Shown here: piece by piece, positions 5,169-45,779 of the stretch
Numbering within the stretch: the first letter of the stretch is position 1
How the letters are laid out: every line of letters begins with the position of its first letter
Source: Pristiophorus japonicus
Taxonomy: Eukaryota
NCBI RefSeq assembly: GCF_044704955.1
Contig: NC_091995.1
Span: forward strand, 16,120,001-16,184,000
DNA: 64,000 nucleotides
Reading direction: 5' to 3'
Made by a program: the position numbers and the translations under genes
Notes under the pieces: generated by a model
Seen by the model: only the letters and a program-made list of their open reading frames with translations
What the model was told of the DNA's origin: nothing
Databases searched by the model: none

Positions 5169-5241
5169 CACCCCAGATGGGATTCAAACCCACAATCCCT
5201 TGCGTAGGAGGCCACTGTTTTATCCATTGGGCCACTAGGTC
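5169..5241 (-). pseudogene. tRNA-Arg(CCT)-derived pseudogene
   Basis: Full-length match to the 11361 copy, with stem mismatches and an altered B box (TTTGAA). Confidence 0.8.
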
Positions 5242-5367
5242 TGCTATTAGCACTGGCCGTGCTATAGGCACACCTCTACGAACTAACTCTACTCCAAGTT
5301 TTAAAGAATGCAGCACATCATTTCCCTCCCCGCCCACGTGCAATCTACGAAGCTTTTAGAACACTAA

Positions 5368-6390
5368 ATGGCCACAGGGCTCAGTGCTGGGACCCCATCT
5401 CTTTACAATATACATCAATGATTTGGATGAAGGAATTGAGTGTAATATGTCCAAGTTTGCAGATGACACTAAACTGGGTGGCGGTGTGAGCTGTGAGGGT
5501 GACGCTAAGAGGCTGCAGGGTGACTTAGATAGGTTAGGTTAGTGGGCAAATGCATGGCAGATGCAATAAAATGTGGATAAATGTGAGGTTATCGATTTTG
5601 AGGGCAAAAACGCGAAGACAGAATATTATCTCAATGGTAGCAGATTAGGAAAAGGGGAGGTGCAACGAGACCTGGGTGTCATGGTTCATCAGTCATTGAA
5701 AGTTAGCATACCAGGTGCGGCAGGTGGTAAAAAAGGCAAATGGTATGTTGGTCTTCATAGCTAGGAGATTTGAGTATAGGAGCAGGGAGGTCTTACTGCA
5801 GTTGTACAGTGCCTTGGTGAGGCCTCACCTGGAATATTGTGTTCAATTTTGGTCTCCAAATCTGAGGAAGGACGTTCTTGCTATTGAGGGAGTACAGCGA
5901 AGGTTCACCAGACTGATTCCCGGACTGACATATGAGGAGAGACTGGATCAACTGGGCCTTTATGCATTGGAGTTTAGAAGATTGGAGAGGGGATCTCATA
6001 GAAACATGCAAGATTCTGACGGGACGGGACAAGTTAGATTCGGTTAGATTGTTCCCGATGTTGGGGAAGTCCAGCACCAGGGGACACAGTCTATGGATAA
6101 GGGGTAGGCCATTTAGGACTGAGATGAGGGGAAACCTCTTCACTCAGAGAGTTGTTAACCTGTGGAATTCCCTGCCGTAGAGAGTTGTTGATGCCAGTTC
6201 ATTGGATATATTCAAGAGGGAGTTAGATATGGCCCTTACAGCTAAAGGGATCAAGGGGTGGGGAGAAAGCAGGAAAGGGGTACTGAGGGAATGATCAGCT
6301 ATGATCTTATCGAATGGTGGTGCAGGCTCGAAGGGCCGAATGGCCTACTCCTGCACCTATTTTCTATGTTTCTATGTTTCTATGTTTCTA
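5368..6390 (+). mobile_element. 5'-truncated CR1 inserted in the tRNA upstream spacer
   Basis: FADD, RPHLEYCVQFWSP and VNLWNSLP motifs; (TTTCTATG)n tail. Confidence 0.9.
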
Positions 6391-6818
6391 GATTGGGCTC
6401 AACGCATTATTACTTGATTTGGCACATCCTCTCCCTTTCACTTTTCAACCTTAGTTTCTCCTTTAATAGTAAGAAACAAATAACATTCTCTTACCGCCTG
6501 TCCCATCTCTTCCATTCTATTGACTACCATACAGGACGGGTGACAGCTCACAGTTCAATCTACTACGTAACATTTTGCAATGTTTTACTTTTTACTTCTA
6601 CAGTTATATATACAGTGGACTTGGTACAAATACGCATGGTTTAAATGTCCATGCAGTTGTACCTTTTGAAACCCTGCTGACGGTCAGTAAGGGATTGATT
6701 TGGCTAATTTAACACTATAAACTTGGGTAGCGTATTAATCTGCTTTTTTTTATTGATATTAGGCTATAAGTCATTCAGAAAGTCAAGTAGTAGAGGAGAC
6801 GTGTTATTTCGTGTAGTA

Positions 6819-6891
6819 TCCTCAGTGGCCTAATTAATAAAGCACTGGCCACTTCAGTCAGGGATTGTGGATTCAAGTCCCATCTGGGGCG
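6819..6891 (+). pseudogene. tRNA-Arg-derived pseudogene
   Basis: CAGTGGCCTAATTAATAAAGCACTGGC...GGGATTGTGGATTCAAGTCCCATCTGGGG; D loop and anticodon loop mutated. Confidence 0.8.
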
Positions 6892-7024
6892 CTTTCGTAT
6901 TTTACCATCAGCCATGGCTCAATGCGTAGCAATCTCACCTCTGCTTCAGCTGTTTGTTGGACCCACTCCAGAAAATTGAACGCAACAATTCTGTCGATCC
7001 AGAGTTTCTTCATTGTGTTGATTT

Positions 7025-7490
7025 TAGAAAGAAAGAAAAACTTGCATTTATATATCGCCTCTCACGACCTCAAGACGTCCCAATGCGCTTAACAGCCAAT
7101 GAAGTACTTTTTGAAGTGTAGTCACTGTTGTAATGCAAGAAAGGCGGCAGCCAATTTGCGCACAGCAAGCTCCCACATATTTGATAATAACCAGATAGTC
7201 GGTTTTGTTTATTTGATGTTGGATGAAGGATCAATATTGGCTAGGACACCAGAGGTAACTCCTCTGCTCTTCATAATAGTGGCATGGGATTTTATACGTG
7301 CACCTAAGATGGCAGACTGGTTTCAGTTTAACATCTCAAGCTGAATGATGGCAGCTCTGACAGTGCAGCACTTCCTCAGTACTGCACTGGAGTGTCAGTC
7401 TGAATTTTTAATGCTCAAGTCTCTGGAATGGGACCCACAACATTCTGAATCTGAGGTGAGAACGAAACCTACTGTGCTACGCCTGACACT
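7025..7490 (-). mobile_element. Deu-domain SINE, near full length
   Basis: 3' tail ...ATATAAATGCAAG and Deu core on the minus strand; head abuts the tRNA at 7496. Confidence 0.8.
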
Positions 7491-7495
7491 ATACT

Positions 7496-7562
7496 CACCG
7501 CAAATGGGACTCGAATCCACAATCCCTGGCTTCGGAGGCCTTATCCTTCAGGCCAGTGGGGC
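7496..7562 (-). pseudogene. tRNA-Arg(CCG)-like pseudogene with internal deletion
   Basis: Minus strand reads CCTCCGAAGCCAGGGATTGTGGATTCGAGTCCCA; about 6 nt missing before the anticodon arm. Confidence 0.75.
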
Positions 7563-8919
7563 AGGTACCTGCAGTCTCTCTACTATCTTATTCTTCTCCA
7601 AATTTCCGAAAATGTGGAACACAATCATCCCTCTTTTTCCCTGCAATTTACGGGCCTTTCCAACAAGTTTGGGCTCATCTAATTATTACTTGATTCACCT
7701 CACCCTCTCCCTTGCTCTTTTCAACCTTGGATTCTGATTTAGAAAGTTAGAAACAAACAACATTCTCTTACCACCTGGCCCTTGTCTTCCATTCGATTGG
7801 CTACAATACAGGACGGGTGAGACTCACAGTTCAACCTACTATTTAATATTTTATTTTAAAGAAATACTTCCTGACATAAGATGAGTGGGTAGACTCTGGC
7901 TTTGAAAGCCATCTTGATTTTGTGTGATAATGTAAAACTCGCCTGCTCTTCTTCAAAGCAGCACCTTGGGATTTTTCACGAGCACCTGAAAGGCCAGACA
8001 GGGTTCTTGGCGTCACGTCTCATCCGAAAGACGGCATCTCCGACGGTGCAGCACTCCCTCAGCACTACACCGGGCGTGTCAGCCTAGATTTATGTGGTCA
8101 AGTCACTGGAATGAAATTACGAACTACTTCTACAAAGGAAGGGTGGTAGAAGTTTGGAATTCTCTTCCAGAAACGGTAATTGATGCTAGTACAACTGTTC
8201 ATTTTAAATCTGAGATTGACAGCTTTCTGTTAACCAAAGGTATTAAGGGATATGGCCCAAAGGTATTAAGGGATATGCTGTATGGAGTTAGGTCATAAAT
8301 CAGAGATTGAATGGGGGAGCAGGCTCGAGGGGCCAAATGCCTTCCTCTCCTTCCAGTGTTCCCATAACCTTCTGACCTGTGGTTCCAAGTTCCATCTCGG
8401 GTGGTGTAGAATTTTAGTGTCAGCCGTGGCTCAGTGCATAGCAATCTCAACTCTGGGTCAGAAGGTTGTCCCAATCCACAAACCTGAGCACTAAAATCTA
8501 GGCGGTAGATTCAGAGTTTCTTCACTATGTTGCAATAAAAAGGAAGAAAAACTTGCAGCACCTTTCACGACATCAGGGCATCCCAAAGCGTTTTACAGCC
8601 AATGAAGTACTTTTTAAAATGTAATCACTGTTGCAATGCAAGAAACGCAACAGCCAATTTGCGCTCAGCAAGCTCTCACAAATGTGATGATGACTAGATA
8701 ATCTCTTTTTTAGTGATGTTGGATGAGTGATAAATATTCGCCAGGACACCAGGGAGAACTCCACAGCTTTCCTTCGACATAGTGCCGAGGGATCTTATAC
8801 ATCCATCTTAGACAGCAGTCGGTTTAACATCTCATCTGAATGAAAGTACATCCGACAGGGCAGAACTTCCTCAGCACTGCACTGGAGTGTCAGCCTGAAT
8901 CATTCGTGCTCACGTTTTC

Positions 8920-11360: not shown

Positions 11361-11433
11361 CACCCCAGATGGGATTCGAACCCACAATCCCTGACTTAGG
11401 AGGCCAGTGCCTTATCCATTAGGCCACTGGAGC
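11361..11433 (-). tRNA. TRR-CCT: tRNA-Arg(CCT), apparently intact
   Basis: GCTCCAGTGGCCTAATGGATAAGGCACTGGCCTCCTAAGTCAGGGATTGTGGGTTCGAATCCCATCTGGGGTG: 73 nt, all four stems pair (some G-U), intact A and B boxes, TTTT 8 nt downstream. Confidence 0.88.
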
Positions 11434-11845: not shown

Positions 11846-12499
11846 ATTTATAACTTGAGCTTAGTTCAATATGCGCTGATTACATTTCCAAGCTGTTGAA
11901 ACCCTGCGGACGGTCAATAGGGAATTAATTTGACAATTTAACACTATAAACTGGCCAGCATACTAATTGCTGGTCTATTAATATTAGCCTATAAATCATT
12001 CCGAAAAACACAAAGCCACAAAATTTAATTCATCCGATAAGAATGCATTGTGACGATGGTGTTACCTACCAAAACCTAGCTATTTTCCACTTTAATGTAA
12101 GGCCTTAAGAAGTCATTTCTGGAACATCAAACATCAGTAGTTCTCAATAACTCATTACAAAACAGAACGTATTGAGGTTCTGATTACTCTTAAATGTTCT
12201 GATAGTTACTGTATTCCACCATGAACCTCTGGGTGAGAAGGCCCCACTCCAGGAATTTTAGCACACAAATATCTAGGTTGAAGCTCCAGTGCAGTACTGA
12301 GGGAGCGCTGCACTGTCGGAGGGGCGGTCTTTCCGATGAGACGTTGAACCGAGGCCCAGTCTGCCCTCTCAGGTGCATGTAAAAGATCCCATGGTATTTT
12401 TCGGAGAAGAGCAGGGGAGATATCTTGACCAATAATTATCCCTCATCCAGCATCACAAAAAAACAAGATGATCTATTCATTAACACCTTACTTTTTGTG

Positions 12500-14382
12500 C
12501 AAGCACTAAGCCTTGTACATGGGCTTCTGTGACCTCACAAAGGCCTTTGACACTGTCAACCGCGGGGTCTATGGAGCGTCCTCCTCCATTTCGGCTGCCC
12601 CCAGCCTCCACCTGCTCCACGACGACTTGCAAGCCATGATCCTGACCAACAGATCCCCACAGACTCGATCCACATCTGGGCCGGGGTCAAGCAGGGCTTC
12701 ATCTTCACGCCAATGCTCTTCTCGATCTTTCTTGCTGCAATGCTCAATCTCACTCTCAACAAGCTCTCCGCTGGAGTGGAACTAAACTGTTGGAGCGTAT
12801 TTTTGGACATATACTTGACTAGTATACGGGACCAAACATTTGTTTTTATTTTCCCCTTTAATTAATTTTGTAAGGGACAATACTGATGCATTATGCTTTA
12901 TATAACAAAAACACAGTTAGACTTCAAGGTATGCTGGCCTTGAGTTATGGAGATAGGAAAGTGAGATAATGAACGACTGGAGAGATAAGTGCCGAGTATG
13001 TTTGTCTATACTGGTGCCAAAAGGGCCTGCCCTTGTTTATAATGCCCTGTCACAATGCAGGCTGGTTTATATCAAGAACTCAGCCTTGGATGAAAAGCTT
13101 TGTAAACCTTGTAATGCGATGATTAGACGTGAGGACTAGTGCTAAAGCATGTGATGTAAAGTGGCGTAATTTGTAAGATAAAAGAACCTCACTGGAGATA
13201 CCAATTTGAGAAGCTGGTTCAAAGACAGGGGTCTTTAACACTTCTCCCAAACTTTGTCTCCGATTTAATAAACCGCTCTTTATATAGTATACAGTCTCAG
13301 AAATATTTTTCCACAACAAAACTATACAACGAATGGGGACCTGTTAAACCTTCATTGCCTTCAGGCTAGATCAAAAGCCCCAACCTCTGTCATCGAACTA
13401 CAGTACACGAATGACACTTGCGTTTGTGCACATTCAGAGGCTGATCTCCAAGCCATCATCAACATCTTCACCAACGCATACGAAAGCATGGGCCTTACAC
13501 TAAACATCCATAAGACAAAGGTCCTCCACCAACCTGACCCCACCTCACGTCATCAAAATCCATGGCGTGGCCTTGGACAACGTGGAACACTTTCCATACC
13601 TCGGGAGCCTACTATCAGCAAGGGAAGACATCGATGACAAAGTCTAACACCGCCTCCATTATGCCAGCACAGCCTTCGGTTACCTGAGGAAGAGAATATT
13701 TGAATATCTGGACCTCAAATCTGGAACGAAGCTTATGGTCTACAGGGCAGTAGTGATACCCACCCTCCTACATGGCTCAGAGACGTGGACCATATACAGT
13801 AGACACCTCAAAGCGCTGGAGAAGTACCACCAGCGCTGCCTCTGCAAAATCCTTCAAATCCATTGGGAGAATAGACATACCAACATCGGTGTTCTCACTC
13901 AGGCCAACATCCCCAGCATCGAAGCACTGACCACACTCGACCAGCTCCATTGGGCGGGCCACATCGTCCTCATGCATGACACGAGACTCATGAAGCTAGT
14001 GCTCTACTCGGAACTCCTACATAGCAAGCATGCCCCAGGTGGGCAGAAGAAACGTTTCAAGGACACCCTCAAAGCCTCCTTGATAAAGTGCAACATCGCC
14101 ACCGACACCTGGGAGTCCCTGGCACAAGACGGCCCTAAGTGGAGGAAGAGCATCCAGGAGGGTGCTGAGCACCTCGAGTCTCGTCACCGAGAACATGCAG
14201 AAAACAAGCGCAGGCAGCGGAAGGAGCGTGCAGCAAACCAGGCTCCCAACCCACCTCTTCCTTCAATGACTGTCTGTCCCACCTGTGACAGAGACTGTAA
14301 TTCCCGTATTGGACTGTAACTGAGAAGTCACTTTTAAAGTGGGAGCAAGTCTTCCTCGATTTCGAGGGACTGCCTATGATTG
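12500..14382 (+). mobile_element. RTE LINE 3' part, inserted in a Deu-SINE (~12227-12499 and ~14385-14525)
   Basis: DLTKAFDTVN and GVKQG motifs, ORF 13735..14319; SINE halves on both sides. Confidence 0.88.
12788..13318 (+). mobile_element. Solo LTR (531 bp) inserted in the RTE
   Basis: TGTTG...CAACA termini; 4-bp TSD AAAC (12784-12787 and 13319-13322); AATAAA near 13267; RTE sequence is continuous across the site. Confidence 0.85.
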
Positions 14383-14551
14383 ATCGCCTCTTGTGGGATC
14401 TTGCTCTGTGCAATTTCGCTGGCCCGTTTCTTACATTACAACAGTGACTACACTTTCACTGTAAAGCACTTTGGGAAATCCTGCGGTCGAGAAAGGCGCT
14501 GAAAATAAAGTCATGTTTTTTTTACTTTTAATTTCAACACTTTGAAGACAC

Positions 14552-15285
14552 GAGGGGGCAGATTTTGGCTTTGGAATGATCTTAACTTCGTGCGATGACG
14601 TCAAACGGGTGATGTCAATGGAAGTAAAAATGGGGAGAGCTGAAAAACGGGCTGCCAATTGGCTATCACCCGTTAAAATATCACCCAACAGTAAGAGCCA
14701 GGCGTATTTTTCCGCCTCACAGAAGTTTTATTGATGTGCCATTAATTAATATTTCAGTAATTCCGCTTGAATAATATGGGTCCAGTTCCTTTGGCCCCTC
14801 CTATGTATTGACATCTTAAAATCGTTGATCAACGTTTCCGGGTGAATCGTCAGCATCTATTCAAAGAATTTCTCGACAATCTGGATAGAAATATTGAATT
14901 GAACGACTCTTTAAGAACGTATTTGCCCCGTCGAATTCTTGTTTACCCGATGATGATTTTAGCCGTACAATTACAGGGCGCACAATCAGAAGGGTGACCC
15001 ATTGACACACACACACACACTTAACAAGGATACACACAGTTTGTCGCTGCCGTGTGCATCCGATCAATGCGAACACATGAGCCAGAAACCTCACAGAACA
15101 GGAGTTAAACTGGTTGCCGCTCTGTCTGCTTATTTCCTCCTTTCTAAGATGACCGACTGATGTCAGTATTTACTCGGGGCTCTAAGAAAATATGTTGGTT
15201 TTTTTTACTTAGCAATGCGGAATACGTATACTTCTAGCGTTAATGCGAAGGAAATGATTATAGATTCGCCTACTCTGCTGCAGGT
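14552..15285 (+). repeat. Unidentified 'X unit', copy 1
   Basis: Homologous to copies at ~20.0, 38.4, 42.8 and 45.9 kb; ORF broken by TGA. Confidence 0.85.
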
Positions 15286-16598: not shown

Positions 16599-16688
16599 GC
16601 CGCAGTGGACTAATTCATAAGCCAGTGAGTTAATAAAGCAGTGATGCTCCTAAGCCACAGATTGTGATTTCAAGTCATAGCTAGGGTT
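16599..16688 (+). pseudogene. Degenerate tRNA-Arg(CCT) copy with internal duplication
   Basis: GCCGCAGTGGACTAATTCATAAG...CTCCTAAGCCACAGATTGTG; standard cassette flanks. Confidence 0.65.
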
Positions 16689-17827: not shown

Positions 17828-17900
17828 CAGCCCAGATGGGACTCGAACCCACAATCTCTGGCTTAGGAGGCTAGTGCCTTATCCATTAGGGAACAGGGGC
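17828..17900 (-). pseudogene. tRNA-Arg(CCT) copy, probably pseudogene
   Basis: 73 nt with CCT anticodon and intact B box, but D-stem/A-box (GTTCCCTAATGG) and acceptor-stem mismatches. Confidence 0.8.
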
Positions 17901-18859: not shown

Positions 18860-18932
18860 GCCCCAATAGCCTAGTTCATAAGGCAATGAGTTCCTAAGCC
18901 ACAGATTGTGAGTTCCTGTCCCATCTGAGATC
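18860..18932 (+). pseudogene. Degenerate tRNA-Arg(CCT) copy
   Basis: GCCCCAATAGCCTAGTTCATAAGGCAATGAGTTCCTAAGCCACAGATTGTGAG. Confidence 0.7.
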
Positions 18933-21021: not shown

Positions 21022-21031
21022 CATATATATA

Positions 21032-25189: not shown

Positions 25190-26170
25190 TGAACTGCGTT
25201 GTTATATCTACCAGGAAAAGATGAATAGGTTGGGTCCCTCTTCTCTTGAAAAAAGCAGGCTGAGGAATGGCCAAAAAGAGGTCTTTAAACATTATAAAAC
25301 GTTTTGATAGAGTCACAGAGAAAATGTTTCCACTTGTGGGGAAGAGCAAAAATAGAGGCCATCGATATAAGATAGTCACCAAGAAATCTAATCGGGAATT
25401 CAGAAGGAACTTCTTTACCCAGAGAGTGGTGCCAATATAGAACTCGCTACCACAGGGGGTAGTTGAAGTGAACAGTCTAGGGGTCTGGGCATATAGATTA
25501 TTCAAATTTCAAGAACAGGTACAGCAAATAAACAAAAAGGATAGTGGGACGCTGGTCTTTATATCTGGAGGATCAGAGTAAAAGGAGAAGAAGTTATTCT
25601 GCAGCGGTACAAAATCCAGGTTATGGCACACTGTGAGCCGTTCTGGGCATCACACCTTAGGATGGACATATTGGCCTTGGAGGGAGTGCAACATTGATTA
25701 ACCAGAATCATAACCCGACTTAAAGGGTTAAGTTTCAGGGAGAAATTACACAATTTAGGATTTTATTCCCTAGAATTTAGAACGTTAAGGGTGATCGGAT
25801 CGAAGTTTTCAGGATCATTAAGGGGAACAGATAGGGTAGATAGATAGAAGCGATTTCCACTGGTTGAAAATTCTAGGACTAGGGGGCACAGTCAAGAAAT
25901 TTGCGCCAGGCATTTCAGGAGTGAAATTAGGAAACACCTCTACACAGAAAGGGATCTCTCACAAAGTTTGGATCTCTCTTCCACAAATGGCAATTGGTGA
26001 TAGATCAATTGTTAACTTTAAATCTGAGATTTATAGCTTTCTGTTAACCAAAGGTATTGAGGGATAGAGGCCAATGGCGGGTATATGGGTCGTTAATCAT
26101 AGATGATCTCATTGAATAGGAGAACAGGCTAGATGGGCTGAATGACCTCCTCCTCTTCCAATGTTCCCAC
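25190..26170 (+). mobile_element. Two CR1 3' fragments
   Basis: CR1 3' coding remnants and 3'UTR. Confidence 0.75.
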
Positions 26171-26225
26171 ACCCATATATGAGAGTGCTACCCACTGAAC
26201 CACAGCTGGCACTAAAATACAGCTA

Positions 26226-27655
26226 CACCCCAGATGGGACTCGAACCCATAACTCTGCACTTAGCATAAGATACATAAGAATTAGGAACAGTAGTAGGCC
26301 ATCTAGCCCCTCGAGCCTGCTGCACCATTTAACAAGATCATGGCGGATCTGGCCGTGGACTCAGCTCCACTTACCCGCCCGCTCCCTGTAACACTTAATT
26401 CCCTTATTGGTTAAAAATCTATCTGTGACTTGAATATATTCAATGAGCTAGCCTCAACTGCTTCCTTGGGCAGAGAATTCCACAGATTCACAACCCTCTG
26501 GTAGAAGAAATTCCTTCTCAACTCGGTTTTAAATTGGCTCCCCCGTATTTTGAGGCTGTGCCCCCTAGTTCTAGTCTCCCCGACCAGTGGAAACAACCTC
26601 TCTGCCTCTATCTTGTCGATCCCTTTCATTATTTTAAATGTTTCTATAAGATCACCCCTCATCCTTCTGAACTCCAACGAGTAAATACCCAGTCTACTCA
26701 ATCTACCATCATAAGATAACCCCCTCATCTCCGGAATCAGCCTCGTGAATTGTCTCTGTACCCCCTCCAAAGCTAGTACATCCTTCCTTAAGTAAGGTGA
26801 CCAAAACTGCATGCTGTACTCCAGGTGCGGCCTCACCAATACCCTATACAGTTGCAAAAGGACCTCCCTGCTTTTGTACTCCATCCCTCTCGCAATGAAG
26901 GCCAACATTCCATTCGCCTTCCTGATTACCTGCTGCACCTGCAAACTAACTTCTTGGGATCCATGCACAAGGACCCCCAGGTCCCTCTGCACCGCAGCAT
27001 GTTATAATTCCTCCCCATTCAAATAATATTCCCTTTAACTGATTTTTTTCCCAAGGTGGATGACCTCACACTTTCCGACATTGTATTCCATCTGCCAAAC
27101 CTTAGCCCATTCGCTTAACCTATCTAAATCTCTTTGCAGCCTCTCTGTGTCCTCTACACAACCCGCTTTCCCACTAATCTTTGTGTCATCTGCAAATTTT
27201 GTTACACTACGCTCTGTCCCCTCTTCCAGGTCATCTATGTATATTGTAAACAGTTGTGGTCCCAGCACCGATCCCTGTGGCACACCACTAACCATCGATT
27301 TCCAACCCGAAAAGGACCCATTTATCTCGACTCTCTGCTTTCTGTTAGCCAGTCAATTCTCAACCCATGCTAATACATTTCCTCTGACTCTGCGTACCTT
27401 TATCTTCTGCAGTAACCTTTTGTGTGGCACCTTATCGAATGCCTTTTGAAAATCTAAATACACCACATCCATCGGTACACCTCTATCCACCATGCTCATT
27501 ATATCCTCAAAGAATTCCAGTAAATTAGTTAAACCTGATTTCCCCTTCATGAATCCATGCTGCGGCTACTTGATTGCACTATTTCTATCTAGATGTCCCG
27601 CTACTTCTTCCTTAATTATAGCAGGCCAGTGCCTGATCCATTAGGCCACTGAGCG
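26226..27655 (-). pseudogene. tRNA-Arg-derived copy split by a CR1 (3' half 26226-26266; 5' half 27619-27655)
   Basis: The halves rejoin to a full tRNA body; TAGCA occurs on both sides. Confidence 0.85.
26267..27618 (-). mobile_element. 5'-truncated CR1 (1.35 kb), relatively well preserved
   Basis: ORFs 26411..26992 and 27035..27295 ([14 protein letters not shown]); sequence close to the element at window start. Confidence 0.92.
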
Positions 27656-28307: not shown

Positions 28308-28358
28308 AATGGATAAGGCACTGGCCTCTGAACGTTGGATCATATCCCATCTGGAGTG
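28308..28358 (+). pseudogene. Partial tRNA-Arg remnant
   Basis: AATGGATAAGGCACTGGCCTC...TCCCATCTGGAGTG followed by TTTT and a SINE head. Confidence 0.65.
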
Positions 28359-28736: not shown

Positions 28737-28795
28737 CTCAAACACACAATCCCTGGGTGAGGAGGCCAGTGCCTTATTCATTAGGCCACTGGGGC
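28737..28795 (-). pseudogene. 3'-truncated tRNA-Arg(CCT) copy
   Basis: GCCCCAGTGGCCTAATGAATAAGGCACTGGCCTCCTCACCCAGGGATTGTG. Confidence 0.75.
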
Positions 28796-29595
28796 CCCTA
28801 TAGAGAGCTGCTCTTCTATCTCACTCTTCTCTAAGTTTTCAAAAATGCGGCACATATAAGCATCCCCCCATCTTCCTGCTATTCACGGGTTTTTGACCTC
28901 ACCTGATCATTACTTGATTTGCCTCAACATCTCCCTTGCTCTTTTCAACCTTGGTCTCTCATTTAGAAAGCTAGAAACAAACAACATTCTCTTACCACCT
29001 GTATCCTGTCTTCTATTCTATTGGCTGTAATAGAAGACGGGTGGCAGCTCACAGTTCAATCTACCACTTAAAATTTTGCAGATTTTTTTCGTTTTACTCA
29101 TGCAGTTATATACAACTTGGGCTTGGTACAAACATGCGCTGATTAAAATTCCAAGCAGTTGTAGTTTTGAAACCCTGTTGATGGTGAATTGCGGATTAAT
29201 TTGCCCATTTAACACGATAAACTGACCAGCATATAAACCTGCTGATTTTTAAATTAATATTAGCCTAGAAATCATTCAGAAAAACACAACGCCACAGGAT
29301 TTAATTCATCTGATAATGATGTACAGTGATCTTGGTCTTACCTACCAAATCCTAGCTATTTTCTACTTTAACCTAAGGAGTTAAGACGTCATTACTGAAA
29401 AGTCAGGCCTCAGTAGTTCTCAATATCACATTATTAAACAAAACGTATTCAGGTTCTAATTACACTTAAATGTTCTGATAGGTGATAAGGTGCTTCCTGT
29501 TATTAGGTGTCCAGCTTAAACAATTTCTTGAATTTTGTATTTGAAAACTTGGAGCGGTCTGAGATAGAAGAGGAGACAGACCAACTACTGTAGTA

Positions 29596-29668
29596 GTCCC
29601 AGGGGCTTAATGGATAAGGCACTGGCTTCATAAACCAACGATTGTGAGCTCAATTCCCATCTGGGGTG
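29596..29668 (+). pseudogene. tRNA-Arg-derived pseudogene (anticodon position reads CAT)
   Basis: GTCCCAGGGGCTTAATGGATAAGGCACTGGCTTCATAAACC...CCCATCTGGGGTG. Confidence 0.75.
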
Positions 29669-32318: not shown

Positions 32319-32390
32319 CACACTAGATGGATTCCAAACGCACACCCCTAGTTTAGGAGGCCATAGCCTTATCCATTAGGCCTCTGGGGC
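32319..32390 (-). pseudogene. Degenerate tRNA-Arg(CCT) copy
   Basis: GCCCCAGAGGCCTAATGGATAAGGCTATGGCCTCCTAAAC. Confidence 0.72.
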
Positions 32391-33750
32391 TGCTTTTTGT
32401 ATTTTTTCTACTATCTCACTCAATCCAAATTATCAAAAATAAGGTACACCTAGTCACTCCCCAGTCTTCCTGCAATCTACATGCATTTAAAAGTCAAGTT
32501 TGACGTGATCCGATTATTTCTGGATTTGCCTCATCATATCCCTTGCTCTGTTCAACCTCGGTCTCTCATTTAGAAAATTGGAAACAAATAAAATTATCAT
32601 ACCGCCTGTCCCATGTGGTCCTTTCTATTGAATGCAGTACAAGATGGTTGACAGCTCACAGCTCAATCTACTATAAAATATTTTGCAGTTTTTTCTTTTT
32701 ACTTATGCAGTTGTATATAACTTGAGCTTGGCACAAATATGCCCCGATTACATTTCCAAGCAGTTATCCTTATGAAACCCTGCTGACGGTCATTAGAGGA
32801 TTAATTTGGCCCATTTAACAGTATAAACTGGCCAGCATATTAACCTGTTTTTGTTTATTAATAATATCCTACAAATTTATATCCTATTTGGGAAAAAAGT
32901 GAAATGGAGATCGAGCGGGAAAGTGAAGTTGAGGTCGATGATCTACCATGATTTTATTTAATGGTGGAGCAGGCTCGAGGGGCCGTAGGGCATAATCCTG
33001 CTCCTATTTCAAATGTCTTAAATCTTAAATCATTCAGAAAAACACAAAGCCACAGAATTTAAATCAGCTGATAATTCGTCAATTTTTTGTCTCAAATTAC
33101 TTCTGTGCCTTGCGACGTTGCACAACGTTAAAGGTGGTAAATAAACACAAGTTGTTTTTGTTGATAATTATGCATTGTGACATTGGTGTTATCTCCCAAA
33201 ACCGAGCTATTTTCTAAAAATATCATAAATTAAGAAGTCATTGCTTAAACATCAAACCTCAGTAATTCTCAATAACACATTATAAAACAAAATATATTCA
33301 GATTCTGATTACTCTTAAATGTTTTCATAGTTGCTGTAGTCCTCCCTGTAATTTTAGCTTTACAGTTTAAATAGTGTTATTATTTTATATTTGAAAACTT
33401 GGAGCAGACTGAGATAGTAGAGGAGACGAACAATTCGTAGCGTTGGCTGTTGGTCCTTCTCCAGGCACTCGCACAGAAATCTAGTCAGCAGATTATGACT
33501 GTCTTCATTGTGTTTAAATTTAAAAGAAACAAAAACTTGCCTTCATATGCTTTGCAATTCACGATCTCGGGATGCCCCAAAGTACTTTGCAGACAAAGCG
33601 TTGTCATTGTTGTAATGCACGAAATGCAGCAGCCAATTTGCACACAGCAAGATTCCACAAACAGTAACGTGATGATGAATAAATAATCTTTCTTTTTGTG
33701 ATGTTGGATGAGATATAAGTATTAGCCAGGACACCGGGGATATCTCCCCT

Positions 33751-33798
33751 ACTCGAGCCCATAATCCCGAGATCTGGAGGCCAGTGGGACACTGAGGC
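33751..33798 (-). pseudogene. Partial tRNA-Arg(CCG)-type remnant
   Basis: Inverted counterpart of 37099..37158. Confidence 0.55.
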
Positions 33799-34025
33799 TG
33801 CTATACACTGCGCCTCTACTCTGCTCCAAGTTTTCAAAATTGCAGCACACATAACCATCCCTCCGTCTTATGGCGTTTAAAAGTCAAGTTTGATCTTACC
33901 AGATCTTTATTTGATTTGCCTCATCAGTTGAAATAGATTTTTTATTTTGTATTTGAAAGCTTGGAGCAGACTGAGAGCTTGGAGCAGACTGAGATAGTAG
34001 AGGAATCAGGCAGCTTTCTGTACTA

Positions 34026-34098
34026 CTCCCGGTGGCCTAATGGATAAGGCATTGGTCTTCTACACCTGGGATTGTGGGCTGGAGTCCCATCTGGGGTA
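34026..34098 (+). pseudogene. tRNA-Arg-derived copy (anticodon position TCT), B box mutated
   Basis: CTCCCGGTGGCCTAATGGATAAGGCATTGGTCTTCTACACCTGGGATTGTGGGCTGGAGTCCCATCTGGGGTA. Confidence 0.78.
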
Positions 34099-34564
34099 GT
34101 ATCGGATTTTTGTATCAGCTGTGGTTCAATGGGTAGCACTCTCAGCTGTTGGACATAAGATTGTTATTCCCACTCAAGACATTTGAGCACAAAAATCGAG
34201 ACAGGAGATTCTGAGTGCCTTCAATGTGTTGAAATTAAAAAGAAATAATAACTTGCCTTTATATACAGCACCTTTCCAGATCTCGGGCTGTCCCAAAGTG
34301 CTTATAGCCAAAGAATAGTCACTGTTGTAAGGCAGTCAATTTTACACAGCTAGATCCCACAAACAGTAATGTGATAATGAATAGATAAACTGAATTTTTT
34401 GTGATATTGAATGAGGGATAAGTATTGGCCAGGATACCAGGGATTACTTCCCATCTCTTCTCCGAGACAGTGCAATGGGATCTTTTACATGCACCTCAGA
34501 ATGTAGAGGAGGCCTTGGTTTATTACCTCATCAAAAAGATGGCACCTCCGACAGGTCGCTATTG

Positions 34565-36750: not shown

Positions 36751-36810
36751 GTCTGACCCACATGTGAGAGCACTACTTATTGCACCACAGTCGATACTAA
36801 AATCCGACAC

Positions 36811-36883
36811 CACATATGGTGGGACTCCAGCCCACAATCCCAGGTTTAGAAAGCTATTGCCTTATCCATTAGGCCACCGGAAG
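36811..36883 (-). pseudogene. tRNA-Arg-derived copy, inverted partner of 34026
   Basis: Shares CCGGTGGCC, TCT loop and the GGGCTGGAGTCCC variant. Confidence 0.75.
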
Positions 36884-37098
36884 TACTACAGAACGTGCTT
36901 TGTCCCCTCCATTATCTCAGTCTGCTTCAAGTTTCAAAATACAAAATAAAAAATCTATTGCAACTGATGAGGCAAATCAAATAATGATTCGTTGAGATCA
37001 AACTTTTAAATGCCCAAAGATTGCAGGAAGACGGAGGGATGGTTAAGTGTGCCGCATTTCTGAACACTTGGAGCAAAGTAGAAGCGAAGTTTACAGCA

Positions 37099-37158
37099 TC
37101 CCCAGTGGCCGAATGGATCAGGCACTGATGTCCAGAGCCGGGGACTGTGGGCTCGAGT
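37099..37158 (+). pseudogene. 3'-truncated tRNA-Arg(CCG)-type remnant
   Basis: CCCAGTGGCCGAATGGATCAGGCACTGATGTCCAGAGCCGGGGACTGTGGGCTCGAGT. Confidence 0.65.
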
Positions 37159-37523
37159 AAGAAAGTTATTCCCGGTGTCCTGGCCAATTCTTATACCTCA
37201 TCCAACATCACCAAAAAAACGGTTATTTATTCATCATCACGTTCCTGTTTGTGGGATCTTGCTTTGTGCAAATTGGCTGCCGCATTTCGTGCAATATAAC
37301 AATGACAACACTTTGGCTGCGAAGCACTTTGGGGCATCCTGAGGTCGCGAATGGCGTTGCATTTGAAGCCAAGTTCTTGTTTCTTTTAAATTTCAACACA
37401 ATGGAGACAGTCATAATCTGCTGACTAGATTTTTGTGCTAGTGTCTGGAGTGGGACCAACAGCCTCTGACCCAGAGCTGAGAGTGTTAACCACTGAGCCG
37501 TGGCAGGTGGTCAAATATTAAAT

Positions 37524-37596
37524 CATCCTAAATGAGAGGCAAACCCAGTATCCCTGATTTCGGAGGCCAGTGCCTTATGCATTAGACCACTCGGTT
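37524..37596 (-). pseudogene. Degenerate tRNA-Arg(CCG) copy
   Basis: GTGGTCTAATGCATAAGGCACTGGCCTCCGAAATCAGGGATA. Confidence 0.7.
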
Positions 37597-38369
37597 GACG
37601 ATACGAAATGTTCGTCTCCTCTACTATCTCAGTCTACTCCAAGTTTTCAAATATAAAATAATAACACTATTTAAACTGGAAGCTAAAATTACAGGGAGGA
37701 CTACAGCAACTATCAGAACATTTAAGGGTAATCAGCATGTGAAGATATTTTGTTTTACAATGTGTTATTGAGAGCTACTGAGGTTTGACGTTTCAGCAAT
37801 GACTTCTTAATTTCTGATATTGAAGTAGAAAATAGCTCGGTTTTCGGATGTAGCACCAACGTCAGAGTGCATCATTATCAACAACTATATGTAGCTTTTA
37901 ACGTAATGAAATGTCCCAAGGCACAGGAGTATTATGAGACAAAACATTGACGAATTATCAGATGATTTAAATTATGTGGCTTGTGGATGATTTAAGACAT
38001 AAGACATAAGAAATAGGAGCTGGATTCGGCCCCGACTGCCCCTCGAGGCTCCTCCGCCATTCAATAAAATCATGGCCTGTCATCGACCTCAACTTCACCT
38101 TCCCGCCTTATCTCCATATACTTTGTTCCCATAGAGAATGCAAATTTGTGGGATATTATTAATAAACAAAAGCAGGTTAATATGTTGGCCAGTTTATATT
38201 GTTAAATGAGCCAAATTAATCCCATTTTGATCATCAGCAGGGTTTCATAAGGATAGCTGCTTGGAAATGTAATCGGGGCATATTTGTACCAAGCTCAAGT
38301 TATTTATAAGTGCATAAATAAAAAGAAAAAGCTGCAAAATGTTACGTAGTAGATTGAACTCTGAGCTGT

Positions 38370-39075
38370 CACCCAACAATTGGAGTCAGATATATGTTGT
38401 CCGCCTCACAGAAGGTTTATTAAAACGCCATTAATTATCATTTCAATAACTCTGGTTGAAGAATATGGATCGTGTTCCTCTGGTCCCTACTATGTATCGA
38501 CATCTTCAAAACGTTGATCAGCGTTTCTGGGTGAATCGTAAGCATCCGTTCAAAGAATTCCTAGACAATTTGGATAGAAATATTGAACTGAAGGACGCTT
38601 TAAGAACATATTTGTCCCGTGGAATATTTGTTTTCCCGATGGTGATTTTAACCGTACAATTACAGGGCGCACATTCAGAAGGGTGTCCCACTAGTACACA
38701 CAGTTTAAAGGGGCATACAGTTAGTTTACCATTGCCGGCTGCATGCGAGCATTGCGAGCAGAAGAGCCAAAAACCTCGGTGCGCGCGCGGAACAGGAGTT
38801 AAACTGGTTGCCGCTCTGTCTGCTTATTTCCTCCTTCCTAAGATGACCGACTAATGTCAGTATTTACTCGGTGCTCTGAGGAAACACATTGCCTTTTTTT
38901 TTACGTAACAATGCAGAATACGTATAATTCACGGTTAGAGATTCGTATGCTCTGCTGCAGGGCTCAATTGCACCGATATTTATCAAATAAAATTAAAATT
39001 CGGCGCTTTCTACAACTGGCATTCATTGGCAACGACAGGTTTGCAGCCGCAGTGCATTTGGAAATCAATCCACAT
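38370..39075 (+). repeat. X unit, copy 3 (ORF intact: ATG 38465 to 38854, 129 aa)
   Basis: ORF track 38456..38854; homology to the other copies. Confidence 0.85.
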
Positions 39076-39130
39076 ATATATTTACATGTATATATAAACC
39101 AGACACACTCACACGTATATACATGTATCG

Positions 39131-40162
39131 ACACACCAGCGAGTTTACACTAGGGAGAAGTCGTTCACCCGCTCCATGTTTGGGAAGGGATTCACTCGGC
39201 CATCCACAGTTCTAAAGCACCAGCTGGTTCATATCAGGGATAGATCATTCACCTACTCTGAGTGTTGGAAGGGATTCATTCGGTCAACGAGACTGCCTAC
39301 ACACCAGCGAGTTCACACTGGGGAGAGGCCATTCACCTGCTCCACGTGTGGTAAGGGATTCACTCACTTTTCCAGCCTGCTAAAACACCAGCGAGTTCAC
39401 ACTGGGGAGAGACCTTTTATCTGCTCAGTGTGTGGGAAGGGATTCACTCACTTTTCCAGCCTGCTAAAACACCAGCGAGTTCACACTGGGGAGAGACCAT
39501 TCACCTGCTCCACGTGTGGGAAGGGATTCACTCACTTTTCCAGCCTGCTAAAACACCAGCGAGTTCACACTGGGGAGAGACCTTTTATCTGCTCAGTGTG
39601 TGGGAAGGGATTCACTCACTTTTCCAGCCTGCTAAAACACCAGCGAGTTCACACTGGGGAGAGACCATTCACCTGCTCCACGTGTGGGAAGGGATTCACT
39701 CACTTTTCCAGCCTGCTAAAATACCAGCGAGTTCACACTGGGGAGAGACCTTTTATCTGCTCAGTGTGTGGGAAGGGATTCACTCAGTCACCCAATCTGC
39801 TGACACACCAGCGCGTTCACACTGGGCAGAGGCCATTCACCTGCTCCACGTGTGGGAAGGGATTCACTCACTTTTCCAGCCTGCTAAAACACCAGCGAGT
39901 TCACACTGGGGAGAGACCTTTTATCTGCTCAGTGTGTGGGAAGGGATTCACTCAGTCACCCAATCTGCTGACACACCAGCGAGTTCACACTGGGGAGAGA
40001 CCTTTTATCTGCTCAGTGTGTGGGAAGGGATTCACTCAGTCACCCAATCTGCTGAAACACCAGCGAGTTCACACTGGGGAGAGATCGTTTATCTGCTCAG
40101 TGTGTGGGAAGGGATTCACTCAGTCACCCAATCTGCTGAGGCACCTGCGAGTTCACAAGTGA
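39131..40162 (+). pseudogene. C2H2 (Krueppel-type) zinc-finger array, 5'-truncated gene or pseudogene; open frame 39176..40162
   Basis: Ten CxxC...HxxxH-type fingers with TGERP linkers (one His to Tyr), preceded by two degenerate fingers; begins mid-finger directly after a microsatellite. Confidence 0.85.
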
Positions 40163-40349
40163 TTGCAGTGTTTGGATTCTGCTGTTATTGCTGCTGTTAT
40201 TCACATCCTACTGAATCGTGTTCATTCTGTTAGTTGGTGTTTGTTTCTGCTGCTGTTAATGAACCTTTAACTAGGTTGGAGTTTAGTATTTTGATATTTC
40301 AATTAACGGTGCGTCGATATTTGATGACTCCAAGATAAGAGGAGACCAA

Positions 40350-40800
40350 CTAATGTCCTGTTACTGACTGCTCCATTTTTGATCGGGGAGGAGGAGTCGT
40401 GAGAGATCGGGGTCCAGGAGCATTGTGATCGGGGCCCAGGAAAGGCGAGGGTTCAGGGCCCAGAAGAGGCGAGGGCCCATGGGGAGCACGGGCCAGCCCA
40501 CGTTGCGATCTATGGATAGTAGAAGCATGTGTGCGCACTAGGTCCATGCAGCAGAGCTTGGTCTCCAGTCGTCTTGGTTAACCCTTGCCAGTGAATCTAG
40601 ACCTATCTCTTTCAAGCCCGTGTGGTGGCTGGTGTACAACGGCCACCCCACGTTAAAAGAATCCATGCACAGGCATCTTCCACCCTTCAGTAAGTCGTTC
40701 GGGACCTAGAATGTCAGGTCCATCATGAAAATACCTGTGGACTCATCCCTTTTTGGTGTGAAAGCGTGTCATCCTCGATTCGAGGGACTGCCTAATACTT
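40350..40800 (+). mobile_element. Non-autonomous RTE-derived element (GC-rich 5' part, RTE 5'UTR, RTE 3' end)
   Basis: GGTCTCCAGTCGTCTTG...GGCCACCCCACGTTAAAAGAA joined to CCTCGATTCGAGGGACTGCCTA. Confidence 0.7.
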
Positions 40801-40887
40801 TACTCATACATGTATATACTCATAATTATAAATATTTTAATGTATATATATATATACATATACACAAATATATATACAAACACGCAC

Positions 40888-41812: not shown

Positions 41813-42382
41813 TTTACATGCACACAATCATATATGCATGCACACACACGTATGTATTATATACATGTATTTATATATACACACACACATATACATATAC
41901 ATATATATATCAGAATAAAATTGAATTATGTTATGTCAAAATTCAGTTACCACTTACGCCTGGTTTCCAGTTTGGTCATATTGGTTAAGCCCCATCTTGC
42001 TTTCCCGTTAACTATACACACTGAAAATAAAGAAAATGAAGAATTGCATTTATATAGCACATTTCACAACCAAATTAAATAATTTTTGAAGTGCAGTCGC
42101 TGTTGTAATGTAGGAAATGCGGCTGCAAGTTGCGCACTGCAAGCTCCCACAAAGTTGATAACCACTGGATAATCTGTTCTTTTTTGTGATGTTGGATGAG
42201 GGATGACCAGAACACCGGGGAAGACTTCGTGGGATCTATTGCGACCACCTCAGAGAGCAGATGGGGGTCTCGGTTTAAAGTCTCATCCGAAAGACGGCAC
42301 TCTGTGAGTCAGCCTGGATATTTCTGGTCCCAGAGATGAGAGTGCTGCCCACTGAGACACGGCTGCTACTAAAATGTCAATT

Positions 42383-42455
42383 CACCTCAAATGGGACTCG
42401 AACCCACAAGCCCTCAGTAAGGAGACCAGTGCCTTATTCATTAGGCCACTGGGAC
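42383..42455 (-). pseudogene. tRNA-Arg(CCT)-derived copy
   Basis: GTCCCAGTGGCCTAATGAATAAGGCACTGGTCTCCTTACTGAGGGCTTGTGGGTTCGAGTCCCATTTGAGGTG; anticodon stem broken. Confidence 0.8.
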
Positions 42456-42754
42456 TGGTAGACGCAATCCCCTTACTATCTCACTCTACTTTTAACGTAT
42501 TCAAAAATGCGGCACACATAATCATCCTCCGTCTTCTTGCAATCTTCGGGCTTTTAAAAGTCAAATTTGAGCTCATCTGATAATTACTTGATTTGCCTCA
42601 TCCTCTCCCCTGCTCGTTTCAACCTCGGTTCCTCATTTAGAAAGTTAGAAACATACAGCACTCTCTCTTTCCGCCTGTCCCATGTCTTCCGTTTATGTTA
42701 GCTCCAACACAAGACGGGTGAGAGCTCACAGTTCAACCTAACACTTAACATTTC

Positions 42755-43640
42755 ATTAAAAAATATGCTTCCTGACATCAGATGAGGGGCAGATTTTGGC
42801 TTTGGTATAGATGTTAACTTCGTGCGATAACGTCAAACGGGCGATGTCAATGAAAATATCAATGGCTAGAGATGGAAAACGGACTGCAATTGGCTATCAC
42901 CCGTAAAAATCTTACCCAACAGTCGGAGTCAGATATATGTTTTCCGCCTCACAGAAATTTTATTAAAATGCTATTAATTATCATTTCGGTAATTCTGGTT
43001 GAATAATATGGGTCGAATTCCTCTGGTCCCTCCTATGTATCGACATCTTGAAAACGTTGATCAGCATTTCTCGGTGAATCGGAAGCATTTGTTCAAAGAA
43101 TTCCTAGACAATCTGGATAGAATATTGAAACCTTTAAGAACGTATTTGCCCCGGTCGAATTCGTGTTTCTCCGCGGTGATTTTAAGCGAACAATTACAGG
43201 GCGCACAGTTAGGAGGGTGTCCCATTAACGCACACACTTTACAAGGGCACACAGTTAGTTTATCATCGCCGTCTATATGCGAGCGTTGCGAGCACAAGAG
43301 CCAGAAACCTCGATGCGCCGCACGGAACAGGAGTTAAACTGATTACCGCTCTGTCTGCTCATTTCCTCCTTCCTAAGATGACCGACTGATGTTAGTGTTT
43401 ACTCGGTGCTCTAAGAAAACACATTTTTTGTTTAACTTAGCAATGCAGAATACATATAATTCACACGTTAATGAGAAGGACATGGTTATAGATTTGCCTG
43501 TTCTGCTGCAGGGCTCCCACTGCACCGATATTTATCAAATAAAATTAATCATAAAATTAATCTTCGGCGCTTTCTATCATCGGCACTCGACCCGCAGCGA
43601 TAGGTTTATAGCCGGACAACATTTGGATATCAACCCACAC
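42755..43640 (+). repeat. X unit, copy 4
   Basis: ORF 42999..43337 (frameshifted relative to copy 3). Confidence 0.85.
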
Positions 43641-43769
43641 ACACATATATATATTATATATATATATATATACACATATGTATATATATATATATATGGA
43701 CATATAAAGCAGACACACTCACAGGTATATACATATATTTACACATACTTATATATATACAAACACACA

Positions 43770-44843
43770 CTTTTTGTGGTATATATCAATGATTTAGACT
43801 TGAATATACGGGGTATGATTAAGAAGTTTGCAGATGATACAAAAATAGGCTGTGTGGTTGATAATGAAGAAGAAAGCTGCGGACTGCGGGAAGATATCAA
43901 TCAACTGCTCAGTTGGGCAGAACAGTGCCACGTGGAATTCAATCCGGGTAAATGTGAGGTAATGCATTTGGGGAGTGCTAACAAGGGAAGGGAATACACA
44001 TTAAATAGTACGACACCGAGAAGGGTAGAGGAACAAAGAGACCTTGGAATGCATGTCCACAGATCCCTGAACGTAGCAGGCCAGGTGGTTAAGAAGACAT
44101 ACGATATATTTGACTTTATAAGCCGAGGCATAGAATACAAGAGCAGGGAGGTTATGCTTGAACTGCATTAAACACTAGTTAGGCCACAGCTAGACTACTG
44201 CAATCAGTTCTGTTCATCACATTACAGGAAAGATGTGATTGCACTCGACAGGGCGCAGAGGAGGTTTACGAGAATGTTGCCTGGACTGGAGAATTTTAGC
44301 TATGAGGAACAATTGGATAGGCTGGGTTTATTTTCTTTGGAACAGAGGAGGCTGAGGGGAAACCTTTTTGAAGTCTATAATATAATGAGGGTCCAAGATA
44401 GAATGGATAGGAAGAACCTATTTCCCTTGCCAGAGGCATCAACAGACAAGGGGCATAGATAACAAATAATTGGTAGGAGGTTTAGAGGGGATTTGGTGGC
44501 ACATTTTCTCACCCAGAGGGTGATGGGAGTCTGGAACTCGCTTGGATGTGCACTTGAAGTGATGTAACCTACAAGGCTCAGGACCATGAGCTGGAAAGTT
44601 GCAAACGCATTTCCTATATTACAACAGTGACTGCACTTCAAATAGTATTTAATTTGGTTGTGAAAGGTGCTATATAAATGTAATGTTTATTTTCAGTATG
44701 TAAAGTTAATGGGAACAGGATAGGGAGATAGCTATGCTACCAAACTGGAAACCAGGCGTAAGTGGTAATTGCATTTTTCATATAACATAATTATGTTTTA
44801 ATTCTGAATTATATATGTGTGTGTATATAAATATATGTGCGTG

Positions 44844-44881
<38 letters not shown>

Positions 44882-45085
44882 CGTGTGTGTGTGTATCAAT
44901 GTGTATATAAATACATGCATATATTTATATATTTAGACGTGTGTGTGTATGTGTGTGCGTGTGTGCGTGTGTCTGTATGTATATATGTGTGGATTAGGTT
45001 GGATAGCTCTTTGTTGGCTGGCGGGGACACAATGGGAAGAAATGTCTTCTTTCCATGATGTAAATTTCTATGATTGTATGATTCT
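43770..45085 (+). mobile_element. 5'-truncated CR1 (tandem duplicate 2) with an inverted local insert at ~44600-44988
   Basis: Same 5' truncation point and internal deletion as 40888..41812. Confidence 0.85.
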
Positions 45086-45706
45086 GCATACACACACAAA
45101 CACACACACGTACACATATATATACATGTATTTATATACACAAAGATACACATACACACATATATATATATATATATACACACATATTTATATACACACA
45201 CGTATATATTTCAGAATTAGAACAGAATTATGTTATATGAAAAATGCAGTTACCACTTACGCCTGGTTTCCAGTTTGGTTGCATTGCTACCTCCCCATCC
45301 GTTTCCCATTAACTTTTCGCGCTGAAAATAAAGAAAATAAAGAATTGCATTTATATAGCACCTTTACAAACAAATTAAATACTTTTTGAAGTGTAGTTAC
45401 CGTTGTAAAGTAGGAAATGAGGCTACAACTTGCGCAGAGCAAGCTCCCTCAAAAGTGATAATGGCTTGGTTATCTGTCTTTTTGTGATGTTGGATGAGGG
45501 AGGGCCAGGACACCGGGGAAGATTTCAAAAATACTTCAAGGGGTATTTTACAACCACCTCAGAGAGCAGACGGGGTCTCGCTTTAAAGTCTCATCCGAAA
45601 GACGACACCTGCGCTTTGCTACACTGTGTGTGTCAGCCTGGATATTTCTGATCCCAGAGATGAGGGTGCTGCCCACTGAGACACGGCTGCTACTAAAATG
45701 TTAATT

Positions 45707-45779
45707 CACGCAAGACGGGACTCAAACCCACAATCCCTGGCTTTGGAGGTCAGCGCCATATCTATTAAGCCGCTGGAGC
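45707..45779 (-). pseudogene. Degenerate tRNA-Arg copy (anticodon position CCA)
   Basis: GCTCCAGCGGCTTAATAGATATGGCGCTGACCTCCAAAGCCAGGGATTGTGGGTTTGAGTCCCG. Confidence 0.72.

What the first reader, a model, noticed from the sequence alone, without database searches (positions are those of the whole stretch)
5169..45779. A ~40-kb birth-and-death array of about 20 tRNA-Arg copies, nearly all dead
Seen: tRNA-Arg(CCT/CCG)-derived bodies at 5169, 6819, 7496, 8378 (part), 11361, 16599, 17828, 18860, 26226/27619, 28308, 28737, 29596, 32319, 33751, 34026, 36811, 37099, 37524, 42383 and 45707, in largely alternating orientation. Hundreds of bases of shared 5' flank and no CCA or poly(A) show DNA-level duplication rather than retroposition. 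Inference: a tRNA cassette amplified by repeated inverted and tandem duplication and then decayed. Residual A/B boxes might still recruit TFIIIC as a boundary.
Basis: partly seen in the sequence, partly recalled or inferred. Interest (0 to 1): 0.7.

Follow-up and report, generated by a model that had tools for sequence, protein, structure and literature searches.

The report
Fossil tRNA array bearing transcription scars
Twenty copies of one arginine tRNA gene, nearly all broken, lie in a 40-kb stretch that was likely built by tandem copying of a two-gene unit, and extra mutations just in front of the copies suggest they were likely transcribed before decaying; this is an ordinary kind of gene turnover, preserved unusually clearly.

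Summary
Confirmed: 20 tRNA-Arg(CCT)-derived copies at the stated places; 16 of 19 neighbours alternate in strand. CCG/TCT/CCA anticodons are point mutations of a CCT body. The overlaps define a ~1.55-kb monomer: tRNA A, 800-bp spacer, tRNA B, SINE head, full SINE. One fold-back duplication likely made the pair; tandem copying, a few later inversions, LINE insertions and deletions followed. The spacer is local only, so this is no transposon. New: the 20 bases upstream of A copies diverged about four times faster than the spacer (JC 1.13 vs 0.28), matching the transcription-mutagenesis mark of active tRNA genes (PMC6130373). Dead bodies are not conserved (15%). Copy 11361 keeps a cloverleaf, both boxes and a terminator (3 of 71 changes vs 59 of 271 in its flank) and may be alive. 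The TFIIIC-boundary idea is unsupported: only 3 of 20 B boxes survive. The array sits in an NKp30-like V-exon cluster on a contig carrying MHC class I exons. No scan note covers this locus or matched all my search words.

The parts
5169..5241 (-). tRNA-Arg(CCT) pseudogene, class A; B box broken
   Evidence: 10 of 73 differ from the intact gene in L003
6819..6891 (+). pseudogene, class B; anticodon CTT, B box broken
6910..7026 (+). B-side SINE head (B box deleted) plus about 35-bp junction shared by 9 of 9 B-side segments (8 bodies and one segment whose body is deleted)
7027..7480 (-). full-length (~455 bp) tRNA-headed SINE behind class A copy (reference; SacSINE1/DeuSINE-like by recall, name not tested)
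   Evidence: dispersed genome-wide
7496..7562 (-). pseudogene, class A; 6-nt deletion, anticodon mutated to CCG
8378..8403 (+). 3' fragment of a class B copy
11361..11433 (-). near-intact tRNA-Arg(CCT), class A: C3T, C40T, G59A; cloverleaf, A and B boxes, T4 terminator; candidate survivor
   Evidence: (62 bits)
12226..14527 (+). inverted A-type SINE split by LINE insertion; tRNA body lost
16599..16688 (+). pseudogene, class B, with internal insertion
17828..17900 (-). pseudogene, class A; B box intact but stems broken
18860..18932 (+). pseudogene, class B
26226..27655 (-). class A copy split in the anticodon loop by a young 1.36-kb CR1-type LINE (26266-27617)
   Evidence: (LINE 94% to other copies)
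28308..28358 (+). pseudogene, class B, 5' and internal deletions
28737..28795 (-). pseudogene, class A, 3' end deleted
28796..29595 (.). reference 800-bp spacer between head-to-head A and B; locus-specific; first 20 bp next to A hypervariable
29596..29668 (+). pseudogene, class B, anticodon CAT
32319..32390 (-). pseudogene, class A
33751..33810 (-). pseudogene, class A, deletions
34026..34098 (+). pseudogene, class B, anticodon TCT, B box broken (ARAGORN still calls it)
36754..38375 (-). later inverted duplicate of 32645-34155 (79-85%), holding copies 36811 (B, -), 37099 (A, +), 37524 (B, -)
39098..40162 (+). C2H2 zinc-finger array (12 x 84 bp) inside the locus; left end of the 50-kb triplication at about 38.6 kb
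42383..42455 (-). pseudogene, class A; B box intact, stems broken
42781..43620 (.). module X: locus-specific 840-bp sequence in a second repeat unit (also at 14555, 20023, 38367, 45868); no protein homologue
45707..45779 (-). pseudogene, class A, anticodon CCA, B box broken

Best explanation
The locus is a decayed array of 20 tRNA-Arg(CCT) copies that was likely built by tandem duplication of a ~1.55-kb two-gene monomer, whose copies were likely transcribed for a while without being kept by selection, leaving at most one candidate survivor (11361). Steps: (1) inferred: a SINE landed about 18 nt behind an ancestral tRNA-Arg gene; (2) inferred: a fold-back duplication of about 250 bp (55 bp upstream, tRNA, terminator, SINE head) was placed about 35 bp beyond the SINE tail, giving the A/B pair; (3) shown as anatomy, inferred as process (unequal crossing-over): the monomer was repeated some 12-14 times, followed by a second unit with module X, about three inversions, LINE insertions and deletions; (4) shown: the 20 bp upstream of A copies diverged about fourfold faster than the spacer; inferred: this is transcription-associated mutagenesis, so the copies were born live; (5) shown: bodies decayed at or above the neutral rate; inferred: redundancy with a large young tRNA-Arg array on the same contig relaxed selection; (6) shown: a recent 50-kb triplication copied the last two pseudogenes again.
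For: Module map; identical SINE-head/SINE-tail junction in 9 of 9 B-side segments; SINE at the same offset behind every copy with a kept 3' end and a B-box deletion in these heads that 1 of 21 dispersed heads shares; spacer local only; A and B form the two sides of one branch in the arm tree (1 change vs 5.1 shuffled; support only 63/82). Inner flank pairwise difference 0.58 vs 0.23 (20 vs 235 columns, six A copies, P=5e-8; no other 20-column window above 0.37; JC ratio 4.06); holds for transversions alone (0.31 vs 0.11) and without 11361. PMC6130373 (passages) reports about fourfold divergence in the same 20 bp, higher for active genes. Dead bodies 182 of 1197 non-CpG sites changed (15.2%) vs 12.7% expected from the spacer. 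11361: 3 of 71 vs 59 of 271 in its own flank, P=0.0002; cloverleaf is its MFE fold, unlike the four other copies folded. At least 34 near-identical intact copies at C19:73.04-73.13 Mb.
Against: No expression or second-species data. The B-class peak is weaker (0.41 over -20..-1; 0.58 over -20..-9; four copies) and two other 20-bp windows of the full unit alignment reach 0.47 in indel-rich parts. 34026 and 36811 share a broken B box yet still differ in the inner flank, which a strict 'needs B box' model does not predict. Against the array-wide neutral rate 11361 gives P=0.016, not significant over 20 copies; gene conversion from an intact gene would look the same; its fold z-score is only -0.5. 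The SINE tree is star-like and does not show the array's SINEs as one clade. The modern gene was used as stand-in for the ancestor. No complete monomer survives; it is pieced from overlaps.
Confidence: 0.72

Rival explanations
1. The decayed copies are kept as a TFIIIC-bound boundary (ETC-like sites) inside the V-exon gene cluster.
For: ETC sites with B-box motifs act as barriers (PMC12409998 passages); three copies (11361, 17828, 42383) keep a B-box core; the array lies between V-exon genes.
Against: B-box core intact in 3 of 20; B box 48 of 202 changed vs 135 of 862 elsewhere in all dead copies, 19 of 83 vs 83 of 561 in 12 independent ones; A box neutral (0.14); SINE B boxes deleted. One live tRNA gene could still insulate, but that needs no array.
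Confidence: 0.07
2. The tRNA-plus-SINE cassette is a mobile element (composite SINE or pre-tRNA retrocopies) that inserted locally many times.
For: Earlier scan notes describe many pre-tRNA/LINE chimeras in this genome (unchecked); one 722-bp piece of the array does occur 17.8 Mb away.
Against: Copies share 280-800 bp of non-transcribed spacer; spacer and 5' flank are local only; of 40 scored hits to the tRNA-SINE junction only the query and one distant copy span it, and that copy is a LINE-led piece of the LINE-split pseudogene.
Confidence: 0.04
3. The copies were dead on arrival, and the variable 20 bp upstream reflects sequence context (CpG decay, a mutable ancestor) rather than transcription.
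For: Bodies show no conservation beyond the spacer; the ancestral inner flank may have held CpGs; the weak excess beside triplicated 42383 (2 variable sites in 20 vs 0.28 expected, P=0.03) includes a CpG.
Against: Excess persists for transversions (P=2e-6) and for columns with three or more bases (13 of 20 vs 21 of 235); it falls in the window defined beforehand by PMC6130373.
Confidence: 0.15

Closest known systems
tRNA clusters formed by tandem duplication with escape from concerted evolution and pseudogenisation (primates, Drosophila; PMC4981973, passages)
   Same: Local duplication, rapid loss, anticodon changes in copies that are already pseudogenes.
   Different: Here one isoacceptor, a two-gene head-to-head monomer with a SINE, about 20 relics still readable at 66-84% flank identity, and 19 of 20 broken.
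Transcription-associated mutagenesis at tRNA loci (PMC6130373, passages)
   Same: About fourfold excess divergence in the 20 bp upstream of the gene.
   Different: Seen there between orthologues and in polymorphism of current genes; seen here between paralogues that are now dead, as a record of past activity.
Young homogeneous tRNA-Arg array of the same genome (C19:73.0-73.14 Mb, 2297-bp unit)
   Same: Same tRNA body, two genes per unit, same contig.
   Different: Co-oriented, near-identical units, intact genes, unrelated flanks (no spacer or X match).
SacSINE1 / DeuSINE family (PMC5499810, passages)
   Same: The SINE in the unit is tRNA-headed, about 455 bp and dispersed genome-wide.
   Different: It is a passenger here; the family name is recalled and was not tested against a consensus.

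Membership tests
Birth-and-death tandem gene array | Copies arise by local duplication with flanks | tested here: met
Birth-and-death tandem gene array | Copies diverge independently, not homogenised | tested here: met
   flank identity 0.66-0.84, 7 of 11 inner branches open
Birth-and-death tandem gene array | Most copies become pseudogenes | tested here: met
   17 of 20 lack the B-box core, 2 more have broken stems
Birth-and-death tandem gene array | Some copies kept by selection | tested here: inconclusive
   11361: P=0.0002 vs own flank, P=0.016 vs mean neutral rate before correction for 20 copies
Birth-and-death tandem gene array | Copies group by orthology across species | not testable with these tools
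   no relatives held; only one species among listed runs
Functional cytosolic tRNA gene (copy 11361) | Cloverleaf, anticodon, A and B boxes, oligo-T terminator | tested here: met
   two stems carry a new G-U pair
Functional cytosolic tRNA gene (copy 11361) | Transcribed, processed and charged | not testable with these tools
   no expression data obtained
Composite SINE / transposon | Unit dispersed genome-wide | tested here: not met
   (searches give lower bounds)
Composite SINE / transposon | Target-site duplications around each unit | not tested
   units too old and fragmented; no systematic search run
Concertedly evolving tRNA tandem array | Near-identical units | tested here: not met
   vs the live array
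ETC / TFIIIC boundary | Conserved B-box motifs | tested here: not met
ETC / TFIIIC boundary | TFIIIC bound without Pol III; barrier activity | not testable with these tools
   needs ChIP and contact maps

The most novel reading that the evidence does not exclude
The array records a self-limiting death route for redundant tRNA genes: each duplicate stayed transcribed but unselected, and Pol III-linked mutagenesis accelerated its decay until a hit in the B box switched the mutagenesis off. The inner-flank scar then works as a clock of how long each dead copy lived, the two structurally dead copies with intact B boxes (17828, 42383) would still be transcribed, and the locus is the fossil stage of the kind of array now alive at 73 Mb on the same MHC-bearing chromosome.
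Probability: 0.3. Interest if true: 0.55.

Novelty: new member of a known kind. Interest (0 to 1): 0.33.

Why it matters
tRNA gene turnover is usually inferred from presence and absence across species because dead copies vanish quickly. Here about 20 relics keep alignable flanks, so birth, activity and death can be read in one genome, next to a live array of the same gene. The upstream mutation scar offers a sequence-only way to tell whether a pseudogene was ever transcribed. It is a clean natural example of known processes, not a new system; the proposed boundary function has no support.

Tried and rejected
Relaxed ARAGORN gave mostly noise and was not used for counts. SINE tree (40 rows) was star-like and uninformative on single origin; 6 rows labelled dispersed were triplication copies of array SINEs. 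Common flank ancestry with the 73-Mb array: no spacer or X match. Sequencing runs: no RNA holder listed, no evidence either way; a read-level check of the locus was not obtained, so polymorphism and assembly support remain open. A search for longer named homologues of the V exon found none, so 'NKp30-like' rests on PDB hits near E 2e-6 that are matched by antibody V domains and on the unsplit VJ-type exon. No usable shark substitution rate was found, so the array is not dated in years. Searches for a printed description of such a shark array (listings only) found none; the library lacks most subscription journals, and no supplements were read.
Full report
Observation. ARAGORN calls three tRNA-Arg genes in the window and Rfam five above its gathering score. 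Aligned to an intact gene from elsewhere on the same contig (L003), all bodies derive from tRNA-Arg(CCT); CCG, TCT, CCA, CAT and CTT anticodons are single changes. Strand alternates at 16 of 19 steps (P=0.002). In 464 kb around the locus only four further copies score well, all in a 98-99% identical 50-kb triplication starting near window position 38.6 kb.

Anatomy. About 56% of 5-46 kb matches repeats found in the flanking background; the rest contains locus-specific repeated modules. Mapping these gives two classes of copy. Class A (11) is followed by a T run and a full ~455-bp tRNA-headed SINE and preceded by one end of an 800-bp spacer; class B (9) is preceded by the other end of the spacer and followed by the T run, only the head of the same SINE, and a ~35-bp junction that runs into the tail of the next A-side SINE. 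This junction is the same in 9 of 9 B-side segments. A and B share only about 55 bp upstream. The SINE heads carry a deletion through their B box that 1 of 21 dispersed heads shows. The economical reading (inference) is one SINE insertion, one fold-back duplication of ~250 bp, then tandem repetition of a ~1.55-kb monomer. Later events are visible: an inverted duplicate (32645-34155 vs 36754-38375), inverted pieces at 12.2-14.5 and 44.6-45.0 kb, a second unit with module X, LINE insertions, one of them into an anticodon loop, and the triplication.

Not a transposon. Genome searches with a 5' flank (9 of 9 hits local), the spacer (23 of 25 local, two 39-50-bp strays) and module X (12 long hits, all local; 8 short hits to one 60-bp part) find no dispersed family; these searches give lower bounds. 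The tRNA-SINE junction recurs once elsewhere among 40 scored hits: a 722-bp, 96% copy of window 25975-26692 at C19:33.99 Mb, made of the LINE 3' end, the tRNA 3' half and 250 bp downstream, sitting inside another LINE and ending in a short LINE-type tail. It is likely a single 3' transduction or template jump, not mobility of the cassette. Earlier scan notes report many pre-tRNA/LINE chimeras in this genome (unchecked); hundreds of bases of shared upstream spacer exclude that route for the amplification, though not for the first ancestral gene.

Were the copies alive? Flanks are 66-84% identical and the tree is mostly unresolved: an old, roughly star-like expansion; no date in years is offered. 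In six A copies the 20 columns upstream of +1 differ at 0.58 per pair against 0.23 in 235 spacer columns (P=5e-8; JC ratio 4.06; highest other window 0.37). The excess holds for transversions, for columns with three or more bases, and without 11361. PMC6130373 (passages) reports that this window is about four times more divergent than reference DNA and more so in active genes. B copies show a weaker peak at -9..-20 (four copies); in the all-pieces alignment it ranks first of 40 windows for A, while two indel-rich windows reach 0.47. Dead bodies changed at 15.2% against 12.7% expected, so they were not protected. I infer live birth without lasting selection. Against this: 34026 and 36811 share a broken B box yet differ in the inner flank. 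In the triplication, B-box-intact 42383 has 2 variable sites in its inner flank (0.28 expected, P=0.03, one at a CpG) and B-box-broken 45707 none: weak.

The survivor. Copy 11361 differs from the intact gene at 3 sites, two giving G-U pairs; it folds to a cloverleaf, keeps both boxes and a T4 terminator. Its body is 4% diverged and its flank 22%, the highest in the set (P=0.0002). Against the mean neutral rate P=0.016 and against the pooled dead rate P=0.003, both before correction for 20 copies; gene conversion is an alternative. I put about even odds on current activity. The genome has ample supply: at least 34 near-identical copies in a 2297-bp array at C19:73 Mb.

Boundary idea. TFIIIC is anchored by the B box, and ETC sites carry conserved B boxes (PMC12409998, passages). 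The B-box core survives in 3 of 20 copies; B boxes are more changed than the rest in all copies (0.24 vs 0.16, P=0.009, non-independent) and not significantly so in 12 independent ones (P=0.075). There is no sign of retention.

Context. The array lies within a cluster of unsplit Ig V exons (38 hits, all C19:15.67-18.0 Mb; Pfam V-set; weak PDB hits to NKp30 and antibodies) on a contig with MHC class I-like exons at 40-57 Mb. PMC10751288 (passages) places NKp30-type VJ genes in the MHC and does not mention tRNA.

Verdict. Real, and explained by known processes: tandem duplication, escape from homogenisation and pseudogenisation (PMC4981973, passages). Paper searches (listings) found no description of such a shark array. 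New member of a known kind; interest 0.33, mainly for the transcription scar in dead paralogues.

Noticed in passing
G000:C19:73.03-73.14 Mb (L005, L007, L070, L071; also L069): Young tandem array (2297-bp unit) alternating tRNA-Arg(CCT) and an intronless tRNA-Arg(TCT) that has a CCT-type body: an amplified anticodon switch.
   Followed up: partly
G000:C19:33,987,580-33,988,301 (L063) vs window 25975-26692: Likely 3' transduction by a CR1-type LINE of half a tRNA pseudogene plus 250 bp, ending in a short LINE-type tail.
   Followed up: partly
window 38617 onward; G000:C19:16.159-16.309 Mb: 50-kb tandem triplication (97-99%) with a zinc-finger array of 9, 8 and 6 canonical fingers, two tRNA pseudogenes and an NKp30-like V exon.
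   Followed up: partly
window 61881-62228 (+); G000:C19:15.67-18.0 Mb: Cluster of at least 38 unsplit VJ-type Ig V exons, NKp30-like, on the contig that carries MHC class I-like exons.
   Followed up: partly
G000:C3:316.6-319.3 Mb: Nine near-identical intronless MHC class I-like matches (alpha1+alpha2 in one open frame of 419-777 aa), unlike the exon-split matches on C19.
   Followed up: no
window 42781-43620 and four other copies: Module X: CpG-retaining, locus-specific 840-bp sequence of unknown origin; one copy lies directly before the zinc-finger array.
   Followed up: partly
G000:C19 about 16.198 Mb and its triplicates (L012): Open frame of about 383-417 aa resembling a Harbinger-type transposase (recalled resemblance, untested).
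   Followed up: no
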